Positions 218 to 1,292 of a stretch of 1,292 bases of DNA are shown in pieces. Numbering within the stretch: position 1 is the stretch's first letter; each line of letters starts with the position of its first letter. The notes under the pieces were generated by a model. That model had not been told where the DNA came from. It saw only the letters and a program-made list of their open reading frames with translations, and searched no databases. The DNA comes from Escherichia coli (GTDB lineage Bacteria > Pseudomonadota > Gammaproteobacteria > Enterobacterales > Enterobacteriaceae), in assembly GCF_003334355.1 (NCBI RefSeq), contig NZ_QOWP01000090.1; one strand, written 5' to 3'. Position numbers and translations under genes: made by a program.

Positions 218-817
218 ATGTCGCCGGAGGACTGGCTGCGGGCAGAGATGCAGGGTGAGATTGTGGCACTGGTCCACAGTCACCCCGGTGGTCTGCCCTG
301 GCTGAGTGAGGCCGACCGGCGGCTGCAGGTGCAGAGTGATTTGCCGTGGTGGCTGGTCTGCCGGGGGGCGATTCATAAATTCCGCTGTGTGCCGCATCTC
401 ACCGGGCGGCGCTTTGAGCACGGGGTGACGGACTGTTACACGCTGTTCCGGGATGCTTACCATCTGGCGGGAATTGAGATGCCGGATTCTCATCGCGGGG
501 ATGACTGGTGGCGTCACGGTCAGAATCTCTATCTGGATAATCTGGAGGCCACAGGGCTGTATCAGGTGCCGTTGTCAGCGGCGCAGCCGGGCGATGTGCT
601 GCTGTGCTGTTTTGGTTCATCGGTGCCGAATCATGCCGCCATTTACTGCGGCGACGGCGAGCTGTTGCACCATATTCCTGAACAACTGAGCAAACGAGAG
701 AGGTATACAGACAAATGGCAGCGACGCACACACTCCCTCTGGCGTCACCGGGCATGGCACGCATCTGCCTTTACGGGGATTTACAACGATTTGGCCGCCG
801 CATCGACCTTCGTGTGA
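218..817 (+). CDS. K: Phage tail tip assembly protein K: JAB/MPN (JAMM) metalloprotease-like domain fused to an NlpC/P60 (C40) cysteine peptidase-like domain
   Basis: Frame-2 ORF ending at TGA 815-817. The translation MSPEDWLRAEMQGEIVALVHSHPGGLPWLSEADRR... carries the JAMM motif H-S-H-x7-S-x2-D (His 275-277, His 281-283, Ser 305-307, Asp 314-316). The C-terminal half has an NlpC/P60-like triad: Cys in GVTDCYTL (434-436), His in VPNHAAIY (632-634) and His 12 residues later in ELLHH (668-670). ATG 218 gives a 199-codon protein, which matches my recollection of the lambda K annotation. The frame is open upstream to position 23 and the ORF track starts it at GTG 143, so the true N-terminus is uncertain (see findings). 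Confidence 0.92.
   Translation: MSPEDWLRAEMQGEIVALVHSHPGGLPWLSEADRRLQVQSDLPWWLVCRGAIHKFRCVPHLTGRRFEHGVTDCYTLFRDAYHLAGIEMPDSHRGDDWWRHGQNLYLDNLEATGLYQVPLSAAQPGDVLLCCFGSSVPNHAAIYCGDGELLHHIPEQLSKRERYTDKWQRRTHSLWRHRAWHASAFTGIYNDLAAASTFV
696..703 (+). promoter_or_regulatory. Shine-Dalgarno-like GAGAGAGG upstream of the I start codon
   Basis: Purine-rich GAGAGAGG at 696-703, 11 nt before ATG 715. It lies inside the K coding region, consistent with translational coupling in an overlapping gene pair. The spacing is slightly long. Confidence 0.35.
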
Positions 818-1292
818 AAACGGGGGCCGAAGCCATCCGGGCGCTGGCCACGCAGCTTCCGTCGTTTCGCCAGAAACTGAATGAGGGCTGGTATCAGGTG
901 CGCATTGCCGGGCGTGATGCAGGCGAAAATGAATTATCAGCCCGTCTTAATGAACCGCTGGCAAATGGTGCTGTGATCCATATCGTGCCGCGTCTGGCAG
1001 GAGCCAAAAGTGGCGGTGTGTTTCAGGCTGTGCTGGGGGCGGCTGTTATGGCGGTTGCTATATGGATGCCGGGGGTAGGAATTATGGCGAGTAATCTGCT
1101 GTTTTCTCTCGGTGCCAGTATGACGCTTGGCGGTGTTGCACAGATGCTGGCCCCTAAACCCAAAACCCCCCGCACACAGACAACGGATAACGGCAAACAG
1201 AACACCTATTTTTCTTCACTGGATAACATGGTTGCCCAGGGCAATGTTCTGCCTGTTCTGTACGGGGAAATGCGCGTGGGGTCACGCGTGGT
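715..1292 (+). CDS. I: Phage tail tip assembly protein I (ubiquitin-like domain protein), 5' partial: the start is present and the 3' end lies beyond the window
   Basis: Frame-1 ORF from ATG 715 with no stop through 1292; it is absent from the ORF track because it has no in-window stop. The translation is MAATHTLPLASPGMARICLYGDLQRFGRRIDLRVKTGAEAIRALATQLPSFRQKLNEGWYQVRIAGRD...HIVPRLAGAKSGGVFQAVLGAA...LAPKPKTPRTQTTDNGKQNTYFSSLDNMVAQGNVLPVLYGEMRVGSRV. The N- and C-terminal stretches match what I recall of lambda gpI, and the gene sits where I is expected (overlapping the end of K, upstream of J). Confidence 0.92.
   Translation, partial: MAATHTLPLASPGMARICLYGDLQRFGRRIDLRVKTGAEAIRALATQLPSFRQKLNEGWYQVRIAGRDAGENELSARLNEPLANGAVIHIVPRLAGAKSGGVFQAVLGAAVMAVAIWMPGVGIMASNLLFSLGASMTLGGVAQMLAPKPKTPRTQTTDNGKQNTYFSSLDNMVAQGNVLPVLYGEMRVGSRV

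What the first reader, a model, noticed from the sequence alone, without database searches (positions are those of the whole stretch)
715..1155. I encodes a ubiquitin-like domain ending in Gly-Gly next to a JAB protease gene, followed by a hydrophobic Gly/Ala-rich segment
The first roughly 100 residues of I (from MAATHTL, or from the second Met in MARICLYGDL) have the character of a beta-grasp ubiquitin/MoaD/ThiS-like domain and end in ...HIVPRLAGAKSGG, with Gly-Gly at 1012-1017, reminiscent of the ubiquitin C-terminus. Immediately after comes a hydrophobic small-residue-rich stretch (VFQAVLGAAVMAVAIWMPGVGIMASNLLFSLGASMTLGGVAQMLAP, 1018-1155) that could be membrane-interacting or a glycine-zipper-like packing segment. 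A ubiquitin-like protein encoded beside a JAMM peptidase is the typical arrangement of prokaryotic ubiquitin-like processing systems, which suggests K cleaves I at or after the Gly-Gly. I understand this association has been pointed out in comparative genomics of lambda-type tail genes, so it is not new, but it remains intriguing.
Basis: partly seen in the sequence, partly recalled or inferred. Interest (0 to 1): 0.55.

Follow-up and report, generated by a model that had tools for sequence, protein, structure and literature searches.

The report
Lambda tail gene I: removable ubiquitin-like domain
This is the well-known lambda-type phage tail gene I, whose front end folds like a ubiquitin relative and sits beside the K protease gene. 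The idea that K cuts it off was published in 2006, so the finding is correct in outline but not new, and the Gly-Gly it highlights is probably not the true end of that domain.

Summary
The sequence facts hold. An ORF from ATG 715 encodes a lambda gpI homologue (about 78% identical to lambda gpI). Gly-Gly lies at nt 1012-1017, followed by a 46-residue stretch with no charged residue (1018-1155).

Structure prediction and two fold searches show that residues 13-97 form a beta-grasp domain of the MoaD/SAMP1/Urm1 kind. The upstream gene K carries an intact JAMM motif and an NlpC/P60 domain.

Three corrections:
- **The Gly-Gly is not the ubiquitin-type terminus.** Profile alignments put MoaD G80 and ubiquitin G75 on Gly96, so the equivalent dipeptide is Gly96-Ala97 (nt 1000-1005). 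In 64 diverse homologues G96 is conserved in 63, G101 in 56 and G100 in only 21.
- **The hydrophobic stretch is a helical hairpin.** Cryo-EM papers describe it inside the lambda tail tip and propose that it inserts into the outer membrane.
- **K is broken in this window.** An IS629/IS1203-type element (nt 1-76) has cut off its start codon.

Removal of the N-terminal domain fits lambda cryo-EM and mass-spectrometry data, and a 2026 preprint reports it for the F-pyocin homologue. The protease has not been identified. The Ubl-JAB link was published in 2006. Verdict: already known, partly supported.

The parts
1..76 (+). Right end of an IS3-family element (IS629/IS1203-like), including the transposase stop codon at 33-35
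   Evidence: Nt 1-76 have no match in lambda-type phages. They match IS3/IS1203 transposase ends in thousands of E. coli records, including plasmids. In strain 118UI the same junction lies between gene L and K.
77..817 (+). Gene K from codon 2 to its stop (TGA 815-817). The ATG is missing (TTC at 74-76), so K is probably a pseudogene here
   Evidence: Translation and alignment with an intact relative where ATG precedes ACAGAGACAGAA. There is no in-frame ATG/GTG/TTG before GTG 143.
83..367 (+). JAB/MPN+ (JAMM) metalloprotease domain of K. Glu19 at 128-130; H68-S-H70-x7-S78-x2-D81 at 275-316
   Evidence: Pfam PF14464, E 1.9e-13. Motif coordinates. The motif is conserved in five diverse K proteins. 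Weak NCBIfam match to desampylase, below the cut-off.
404..745 (+). NlpC/P60 papain-like peptidase domain of K. Asp-Cys at 431-436, Asn-His at 629-634, His-His at 668-673
   Evidence: Pfam PF00877, E 8.5e-13. The residues are conserved in five diverse K proteins.
715..1292 (+). Gene I, codons 1-192 of 213; it runs off the window end
   Evidence: Translation. E 1.5e-94 to lambda gpI chains 8iyk/8iyl/8k35/8xcg. Full length read from a 99% identical relative.
715..817 (+). 103-nt overlap of K and I, in different frames
   Evidence: Among 28 distinct close relatives, common variation from 750 to 817 falls on the third codon position of the I frame, which is the second position of the K frame.
751..1005 (+). 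Ubiquitin-like beta-grasp domain of I, residues 13-97, MoaD/ThiS/SAMP/Urm1 type
1000..1005 (+). Gly96-Ala97, the positional equivalent of the C-terminal Gly-Gly of ubiquitin and MoaD, and a candidate processing site
   Evidence: hhalign register. G96 is Gly in 63 of 64 homologues; position 97 is Ala in 50 and Ser in 12; P92 is invariant.
1012..1017 (+). Gly100-Gly101, the dipeptide named in the finding. It lies in the linker / start of helix H1
   Evidence: Coordinates. G100 is Gly in 21 of 64 and G101 in 56 of 64 homologues. The dipeptide is invariant in 80 close lambda-group loci. Helix H1 is predicted from residue 100.
1012..1149 (+). Hydrophobic helical hairpin: H1 residues 100-117 (1012-1065), turn MPGVG, H2 residues 123-145 (1081-1149)
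   Evidence: AlphaFold2 full-length model. Hydropathy and absence of charge. G108, G133 and G140 are invariant. The corresponding lambda helices are described in the tail-tip lumen and proposed to insert into the outer membrane.
1156..1292 (+). Start of the C-terminal plug / beta-augmentation region of I, residues 148-192
   Evidence: Aligns to the part of lambda gpI modelled in virions (residues 134/135-223).

Best explanation
The window holds the K-I junction of a lambda-type prophage tail module.

Gene I encodes a precursor with four parts:
- a MoaD/SAMP-like ubiquitin-fold domain (residues 13-97);
- a short flexible linker (98-99/101);
- a hydrophobic helical hairpin (100-145);
- an extended C-terminal region.

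In the assembled tail, the extended region threads between gpJ domains and forms the trimeric plug that holds the C-terminus of the tape-measure protein.

The ubiquitin-fold domain most likely acts as a temporary pro-domain. It would keep the membrane-active hairpin soluble, or block premature docking of the tip. It would then be cut off during tail-tip assembly, so that only the hairpin and plug remain in the particle.

The most likely protease is the JAMM domain of K, the non-structural protein encoded immediately upstream. It would cut at or just after the conserved Gly96-Ala/Ser97, rather than after Gly100-Gly101.

On receptor binding the plug opens, and the hairpin is proposed to enter the outer membrane.

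**Shown here:** the fold, the motifs, their conservation and the gene order.
**Taken from papers:** the location of the C-terminal part in the particle, the absence of the N-terminal part, and the absence of K from virions.
**Inferred:** that K is the protease, the exact cut site, and the role of the pro-domain.

In this particular window the system is probably inactive, because an IS element has removed K's start codon.
For: **Fold**
- AlphaFold2 core pLDDT above 90.
- Foldseek top hits are SAMP1, Urm1, MoaD and CysO.
- Pfam PF06805.

**Protease partner**
- K has E19...H68-S-H70-x7-S78-x2-D81 and the NlpC/P60 Cys/His residues. Both sets are conserved in five diverse K proteins.
- The order L-K(JAB+NlpC/P60)-I-J is seen in phi80, a Rhizobium phage, a Pseudomonas phage, Henu7 and three metagenomic or genomic contigs.

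**Cut-site region**
- P92 is conserved in 64 of 64, G96 in 63 of 64, and position 97 is Ala or Ser in 62 of 64 homologues.
- G96 aligns with the first Gly of the terminal GG of MoaD and ubiquitin.

**Removal of the N-terminal domain**
- Lambda gpI is modelled only from residue 134/135 or 101.
- The single gpI peptide found in virions covers 9.87% of the protein. That can only be the 22-residue tryptic peptide 202-223.
- K was not detected in virions.
- In F-pyocin, N-terminal peptides of the homologue PA0640 are absent from mature particles but present in assembly-stalled mutants.
- Deleting the K homologue PA0639 gives tubes without tips.

**Prior prediction:** Iyer et al. 2006.
Against: - No experiment in the papers I could reach shows that K cleaves I. 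The F-pyocin preprint states that the mechanism is unknown, and that PA0640 expressed alone in E. coli loses its N-terminal region to 'unknown host proteases'.
- Missing cryo-EM density could also mean disorder rather than removal.
- The lambda mass-spectrometry evidence is a single peptide of a low-copy protein.
- Gly-Ala or Gly-Ser is not the usual Gly-Gly recognised by JAMM enzymes (own knowledge).
- The hhalign scores that set the register are weak because each template was a single sequence (probability 15% and 2%; pairwise E 0.0018 and 0.02).
- K also has a second peptidase domain that could do the cutting.
Confidence: 0.6

Rival explanations
1. The N-terminal ubiquitin-fold domain is removed, but not by the JAMM domain of K. 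The cut is made instead by K's NlpC/P60 papain-like domain or by a host protease acting on the exposed linker.
For: PA0640 expressed alone in E. coli loses its N-terminal region. The linker 98-103 is predicted disordered. K carries a conserved Cys/His peptidase domain as well. Iyer et al. also raised the NlpC/P60 option.
Against: The JAMM motif is fully conserved next to this Ubl across distant phages. JAMM enzymes are the known processing enzymes for MoaD/SAMP-type Ubls (own knowledge; weak desampylase match). The near-invariant G96-[AS]97 points to a specific recognition site.
Confidence: 0.2
2. I is not cleaved. The ubiquitin-fold domain stays attached and is simply disordered inside the tail lumen, so cryo-EM does not see it. 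It acts as a permanent interaction or spacer module.
For: [quoted passage not shown] PDB entries 8iyk, 8iyl, 8k35 and 8xcg list the full 223-residue sequence.
Against: F-pyocin mass spectrometry finds the N-terminal peptides only in assembly-stalled mutants. In lambda virions only the C-terminal peptide was detected, although the Ubl has several ordinary tryptic peptides. The lumen is already occupied by the tape-measure protein.
Confidence: 0.12
3. One reading: the cut is exactly at or after Gly100-Gly101, used as a ubiquitin-type diglycine.
For: GG is invariant in 80 close lambda-group loci. G101 is Gly in 56 of 64 diverse homologues. JAMM enzymes normally cut after Gly-Gly (own knowledge).
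Against: G100 is Gly in only 21 of 64 homologues. The processed F-pyocin-type homologue has GSKQSG. The ubiquitin/MoaD GG aligns with G96-A97. Residue 101 is reported as resolved in the closed lambda tip. GG here is at chance frequency.
Confidence: 0.15
4. The ubiquitin-fold domain works as a true modifier or sulfur carrier. It would be activated by an E1-like enzyme and attached to a target, as SAMP, ThiS or MoaD are.
For: The closest folds are SAMP1, MoaD and Urm1. Iyer et al. mention possible thiolation.
Against: No E1/ThiF/MoeB-like gene appears in any of the tail modules examined: H-M-L-K-I-J only. The domain is the N-terminal part of a structural precursor. The terminal dipeptide equivalent is Gly-Ala/Ser, not Gly-Gly.
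Confidence: 0.02

Closest known systems
Bacteriophage lambda gpI (tail tip assembly / plug protein; Pfam PF06805) with gpK
   Same: Same family and same gene order. About 78% protein identity to lambda gpI and E 1.5e-94 to PDB 8iyk chain I. Same Ubl, linker motif AGAKSGG, hairpin and plug. Same K with JAB+NlpC/P60 and the same 103-nt K/I overlap.
   Different: The hairpin is 10 residues shorter than in lambda (213 against 223 residues). K here is interrupted by an IS element.
F-type pyocin PA0640 (tip plug) and PA0639 (gpK homologue), bioRxiv 10.64898/2026.02.24.707460
   Same: Homologous protein (PDB 25vf chain 9, E 2.9e-23). Only the C-terminal part is seen in the particle. The N-terminal region is reported to be removed by proteolysis before the tip joins the tube. 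The K homologue is required for tip formation.
   Different: The linker reads GSKQSG, with no Gly-Gly. It is a bacteriocin, not a phage. The protease is not identified there either.
SAMP1/HvJAMM1, MoaD, ThiS, Urm1, CysO-Mec+ and QbsE-QbsD (prokaryotic Ubl plus JAMM pairs)
   Same: Best structural matches of the I domain. A JAMM motif in the neighbouring protein. The conserved P...G at the end of beta5 matches the MoaD FPPVTGG tail.
   Different: No E1-like enzyme. The Ubl is fused upstream of a structural protein instead of standing alone. The terminal-equivalent dipeptide is Gly-Ala/Ser. The function is assembly, not sulfur transfer or conjugation.
Eukaryotic ubiquitin-ribosomal protein fusions (Ub-L40, Ub-S27a) processed by deubiquitinases
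   Same: It would work in the same way: a ubiquitin-fold domain made as an N-terminal fusion, acting as a temporary chaperone and clipped off (own knowledge; an analogy only).
   Different: No sequence relationship beyond the fold. Different protease classes are usual. Not tested here.
Phage T5 pb3 plug domain
   Same: Same position and role of the C-terminal part: a trimeric plug that closes the tube and has hydrophobic segments proposed to enter the outer membrane.
   Different: In T5 the plug is an insertion within the hub protein. There is no Ubl and no K-like protease partner.

Membership tests
Lambda tail protein I family (PF06805 / lambda gpI) | Significant match to the family profile and to lambda gpI | tested here: met
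   PF06805 E 1.7e-23. phrog_32 'tail assembly protein' E 1e-83. 8iyk_I E 1.5e-94.
Lambda tail protein I family (PF06805 / lambda gpI) | Position in the tail module between K and J | tested here: met
   K lies upstream in the window. The full L-K-I-J order is seen in a 99% identical relative and in strain 118UI.
Lambda tail protein I family (PF06805 / lambda gpI) | Hydrophobic hairpin and C-terminal plug region after the Ubl | tested here: met
   Alignment to lambda gpI through residue 192. Helices 100-117 and 123-145. The last 21 codons lie outside the window.
Beta-grasp ThiS/MoaD/SAMP/Urm1 ubiquitin-like superfamily | Beta-grasp fold | tested here: met
Beta-grasp ThiS/MoaD/SAMP/Urm1 ubiquitin-like superfamily | Gly-Gly three to four residues after beta5, at a free or exposable C-terminus | tested here: not met
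   That position holds Gly96-Ala97. The first Gly is conserved in 63 of 64 homologues, and the second position is Ala or Ser in 62 of 64. The actual Gly-Gly is four residues further on and is conserved in only a third of homologues.
Ubiquitin-like conjugation or sulfur-carrier system | E1-like adenylating enzyme (ThiF/MoeB/UBA) encoded with the Ubl | tested here: not met
   None among the annotated or Pfam-labelled neighbours in nine loci. Only the immediate tail module was inspected.
JAMM/MPN+ metalloprotease (K, N-terminal domain) | E...HxH-x7-S-x2-D zinc-site motif and a match to the Prok-JAB profile | tested here: met
   PF14464 E 1.9e-13. Motif at nt 128-130 and 275-316. Conserved in five diverse K proteins.
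JAMM/MPN+ metalloprotease (K, N-terminal domain) | Catalytic cleavage of the Ubl-containing substrate | not testable with these tools
   No experimental report found.
JAMM/MPN+ metalloprotease (K, N-terminal domain) | Intact, translatable gene at this locus | tested here: not met
   The ATG is replaced by the IS end (TTC at 74-76). The first canonical in-frame start is GTG 143, which lies after the catalytic Glu.
NlpC/P60 (C40) peptidase (K, C-terminal domain) | Profile match with catalytic Cys and His | tested here: met
   PF00877 E 8.5e-13. The D-C, N-H and H-H residues are conserved.
Transmembrane / glycine-zipper helices | Uncharged hydrophobic helices of membrane-spanning length | tested here: met
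   46 residues without charge and a hydropathy peak of 2.04. Predicted helices of 18 and 23 residues. This is prediction only; the papers cite TMHMM.
Transmembrane / glycine-zipper helices | GxxxGxxxG or small-xxx-small repeat on one helix face | tested here: inconclusive
   S131-x3-S135-x3-G139 in H2. Positions 135 and 139 are small in 59 and 59 of 64 homologues, and position 131 in 37 of 64. G108, G133 and G140 are invariant. There is no strict GxxxG repeat.

The most novel reading that the evidence does not exclude
The ubiquitin-fold domain of I is a cleavable solubility tag or steric shield for a membrane-active hairpin. The JAMM domain of K would remove it at the conserved Gly96-Ala/Ser97, not at the Gly-Gly, as an assembly checkpoint before the tip docks onto the tape-measure protein and tube. 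That would be a phage counterpart of ubiquitin-fusion processing. The same K protease might also make the still unexplained gpH to gpH* cut in the Gly-rich region of the tape-measure protein.
Probability: 0.3. Interest if true: 0.6.

Novelty: already known. Interest (0 to 1): 0.28.

Why it matters
Lambda gpK is essential for tail assembly, yet its biochemical role is still undefined. The protease that trims the gpI family has not been identified, and neither has the one that cuts gpH. The Ubl-JAMM pairing gives a concrete hypothesis that can be tested, and this analysis narrows the candidate cut site to residues 96-101, with Gly96-Ala97 as the conserved core. For the scan itself the result is modest. 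The finding restates a 2006 comparative-genomics prediction about a textbook phage, and the locus in hand is a decayed prophage copy.

Tried and rejected
- **Scan for distant loci with the diverse full-length alignment A2.** I therefore could not build a large table of Ubl presence against JAB presence. Seven hand-checked loci were used instead.
- **I homologues lacking the Ubl, to test co-loss with JAB.** The representatives without a Ubl match were deletion chimeras of decayed prophages (fusions to V, E, K, terminase and others), so they were uninformative.
- **NCBIfam.** It has no model for I. K only gave below-cut-off matches to desampylase and a phage NlpC family.
- **Profile of the Ubl against PDB sequences.** MoaD hits appeared only at E about 1. 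Sequence alone does not establish the fold; structure comparison was needed.
- **Literature searches for direct proof that gpK cleaves gpI.** None found. The paper describing 8IYK/8IYL is not in the library, so the 'residue 101 onward' statement is second-hand.
- **Other features in the window.** Rfam found nothing. The promoter and terminator scans were at background level.
- **Modelling a K-I complex as a fused chain.** Considered and dropped, because the tool returns no coordinates or contact map.
[quoted passage not shown] It is a beta-grasp domain with no hydrolase match.
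Full report
**What is in the window.**
- Nt 77-1292 match lambda-type phages and E. coli prophages at up to 97-99% identity. The records annotate 'tail tip assembly protein K' and 'tail tip assembly protein I'.
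- The frame-2 ORF ending at TGA 815-817 is K. It matches Pfam Prok-JAB PF14464 (nt 83-367) and NLPC_P60 PF00877 (nt 404-745).
- The ORF from ATG 715 is I. It is open for 192 codons to the window end, and the full protein is 213 residues in a 99% identical relative.
- It is about 78% identical to lambda gpI and hits the lambda gpI chains of 8iyk, 8iyl, 8k35 and 8xcg at E 1.5e-94.

**Check of the observation.**
- The coordinates are exact: Met14 at 754-756, Gly100-Gly101 at 1012-1017, and residues 102-147 at 1018-1155.
- The 46-residue stretch has no charged residue, is 39% Gly+Ala+Ser, and peaks at 2.04 on a 19-residue Kyte-Doolittle window.
- The Gly-Gly itself is not statistically notable. 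There are two GG in the fragment against 2.3 expected, and a GG lands within residues 94-104 in 10% of shuffles.

**The fold.**
- I built a 64-sequence alignment of diverse homologues. It came from a search of 1.84 billion representatives that gave 3282 hits at E up to 0.001.
- AlphaFold2 on residues 1-106 gave mean pLDDT 85, with the core above 90. The element order is E13-19, H21-26, E29-34, H37-47, H49-57, E59-64, E67-69, H74-78, E87-93, which is a beta-grasp. Residues 98-103 fell below pLDDT 50.
- Foldseek against the PDB ranks SAMP1 (2l52, 3po0, 4hro), mouse Urm1 (1wgk), MoaD (1fm0_D and others), CysO, and then SUMO and ubiquitin, with TM 0.6-0.74.

**Where the ubiquitin-like domain really ends.**
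- Conservation in the 64 homologues: P92 64/64; G96 63/64; position 97 Ala 50, Ser 12; G100 21/64; G101 56/64.
- Linker examples are AGAKSGG (lambda group), EGAKSSG (phi80), AGSKRAG (Pseudomonas phage) and GSKQSG (PDB 25vf chain 9, evidently the F-pyocin protein).
- hhalign of the family profile against E. coli MoaD aligns ...DGDEVAFFPPVTG with ...NGAVIHIVPRLAG, so MoaD G80 falls on G96. Against ubiquitin, G75 falls on G96.
- These pairwise scores are weak, but the two registers agree with each other. They also agree with the three-residue spacing after beta5 in the model.
- The ubiquitin-type terminal dipeptide is therefore Gly96-Ala97 (nt 1000-1005). The Gly-Gly named in the finding lies four residues downstream, in the linker.
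- In the full-length model Gly100 is the first residue of helix H1.

**The hydrophobic segment.**
- The full-length model predicts helices at 100-117 and 123-145, joined by the turn MPGVG. After them comes a low-confidence extended region.
- G108, G133 and G140 are invariant. H2 carries a small-xxx-small pattern at S131/S135/G139, which is only partly conserved at position 131.
- Published lambda structures place the second helix and the C-terminal region in the tail-tip lumen. [quoted passage not shown]
- Ge and Wang name the two helices H1 and H2, cite TMHMM predictions, and report that the helices disappear in the LamB-bound open state. They propose insertion into the outer membrane. Later work agrees, and the same is proposed for the F7 pyocin homologue.
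Neither is new.

**Is the N-terminal domain removed?**
- Lambda virion models start at residue 134/135. According to Ge and Wang, the closed-state entries 8IYK/8IYL start at residue 101.
- The mass-spectrometry table of Xiao et al. lists one gpI peptide at 9.87% coverage. The only tryptic peptide of that length, allowing up to two missed cleavages, is residues 202-223. No Ubl peptide was seen, although this is weak evidence for a three-copy protein.
- gpK was not detected in virions.
- The strongest evidence is from a homologue. In F-type pyocin, PA0640 is seen only from residue 127. Its N-terminal peptides are missing from mature particles but present in mutants where the tip cannot join the tube. 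The authors conclude that the region is removed by proteolysis as an assembly checkpoint.
- They also report that deleting PA0639, the gpK homologue, gives tubes without tips. PA0640 expressed alone in E. coli loses its N-terminal region to unknown host proteases. They state that the cleavage mechanism is unresolved.

**The protease partner.**
- K has the full JAMM motif: Glu19, then His68-Ser-His70-x7-Ser78-x2-Asp81. It also has the NlpC/P60 Cys and His residues. All are conserved in K proteins of phi80, a Rhizobium phage, a Pseudomonas phage and the T1-like phage Henu7.
- The order H-M-L-K(JAB+NlpC/P60)-I-J holds in those phages and in three further contigs chosen for low identity to the query.
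- K's best curated-family match, below the cut-off, is the archaeal desampylase. This fits SAMP1 being the best structural match of the I domain.
- No E1-like gene is present in any of these modules. This is a Ubl-protease pair, not a conjugation system.

**Prior knowledge.** Iyer, Burroughs and Aravind (Genome Biol 2006;7:R60) already described all of the following:
- the ThiS/MoaD-related domain of 'TAPI';
- its conserved C-terminal glycine;
- the Gly-rich linker and the C-terminal domain;
- the flanking 'TAPK' with JAB and NlpC/P60 domains;
- the prediction that the JAB domain releases the Ubl at its last glycine, together with the alternative that NlpC/P60 does it.

I found no later paper that tests this.

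**State of this locus.**
- Nt 1-76 are the right end of an IS629/IS1203-type IS3-family element.
- In strain 118UI the same element sits between L and K, with K's ATGACAC on the far side and the characteristic left end TGAACCGCCCCGGG.
- In the window the ATG position reads TTC. No canonical in-frame start occurs before GTG 143, which lies after the catalytic Glu.
- K is therefore probably not made from this copy, and the tail module is likely defective.

**Conclusion.**
It is supported for the fold, the synteny and the likely removal of the domain. It is unproven for the protease, and probably wrong about the exact site.
- My estimates: the Ubl is removed in functional members, about 0.75; K's JAMM domain does it, about 0.55; the cut is after Gly101, about 0.15.
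- Novelty: already known.

Noticed in passing
window 1-76 (junction at 76/77); L001 2750-4080: The window starts inside the right end of an IS629/IS1203-type IS3-family element, inserted after the second codon of K. The same insertion site occurs in E. coli strain 118UI, where PGAP calls a 257-residue 'C40 family peptidase' that starts inside the IS end.
   Followed up: yes
window 715-817: K and I overlap by 103 nt in the lambda group, against 8 nt in phi80 and a Rhizobium phage. Common variation at 750-817 falls on I-frame third positions, so I is the constrained frame. K's last 16 or so residues are an unconstrained tail that K proteins of other phages lack.
   Followed up: partly
window 715, 754, 814: Public records use three different starts for I: ATG 715 (lambda reference and the PDB sequence), ATG 754 (PGAP, 200 residues) and GTG 814 (PGAP in 118UI, 193 residues, which would delete strands beta1 and beta2). 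Synonymous variation at codons 12-13, and Met14 replaced by Leu or Val in two relatives, favour 715. Most distant homologues begin at the Met14 equivalent.
   Followed up: partly
L006 about 1240-2000 (Escherichia phage Henu7, NC_054894.1): An unannotated ORF with a full JAMM motif and an NlpC/P60 domain (a K homologue) fills the 'empty' gap between the annotated L-like and I-like genes of this RefSeq record.
   Followed up: partly
window 365-370 (G run) and 697-702 (GAGAGG); proteins P0003, P0004, P0037, P0050: Several database proteins are K(NlpC/P60)-I fusions. They arise from a 2-nt loss in GAGAGG or TATACA just before I's ATG, or from a larger deletion. In three of the four the ORF also starts in another frame, across a shortened G run. 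These may be real decay or assembly errors. They recall the 'TAPI fused to JAB' case in Iyer et al.
   Followed up: partly
window 1045-1095 (I residues about 111-127): The loop region of the hairpin is polymorphic. This variant is 10 residues shorter than lambda (213 against 223 residues). Close relatives fall into at least two length classes (47 or 49 residues for the G101-P147 segment).
   Followed up: partly
proteins P0177, P0184, P0186, P0228, P0248, P0268 (loci L088, L089): Some distant I homologues carry C-terminal extensions of 150-250 residues after the plug region, while keeping the Ubl, the hairpin and an upstream JAB+NlpC/P60 gene. The function of the extension is unknown.
   Followed up: no
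literature (PMC12617516): The protease that converts the lambda tape-measure protein gpH to gpH*, cutting in a Gly-rich region, is stated to be unknown. K is an obvious untested candidate.
   Followed up: no
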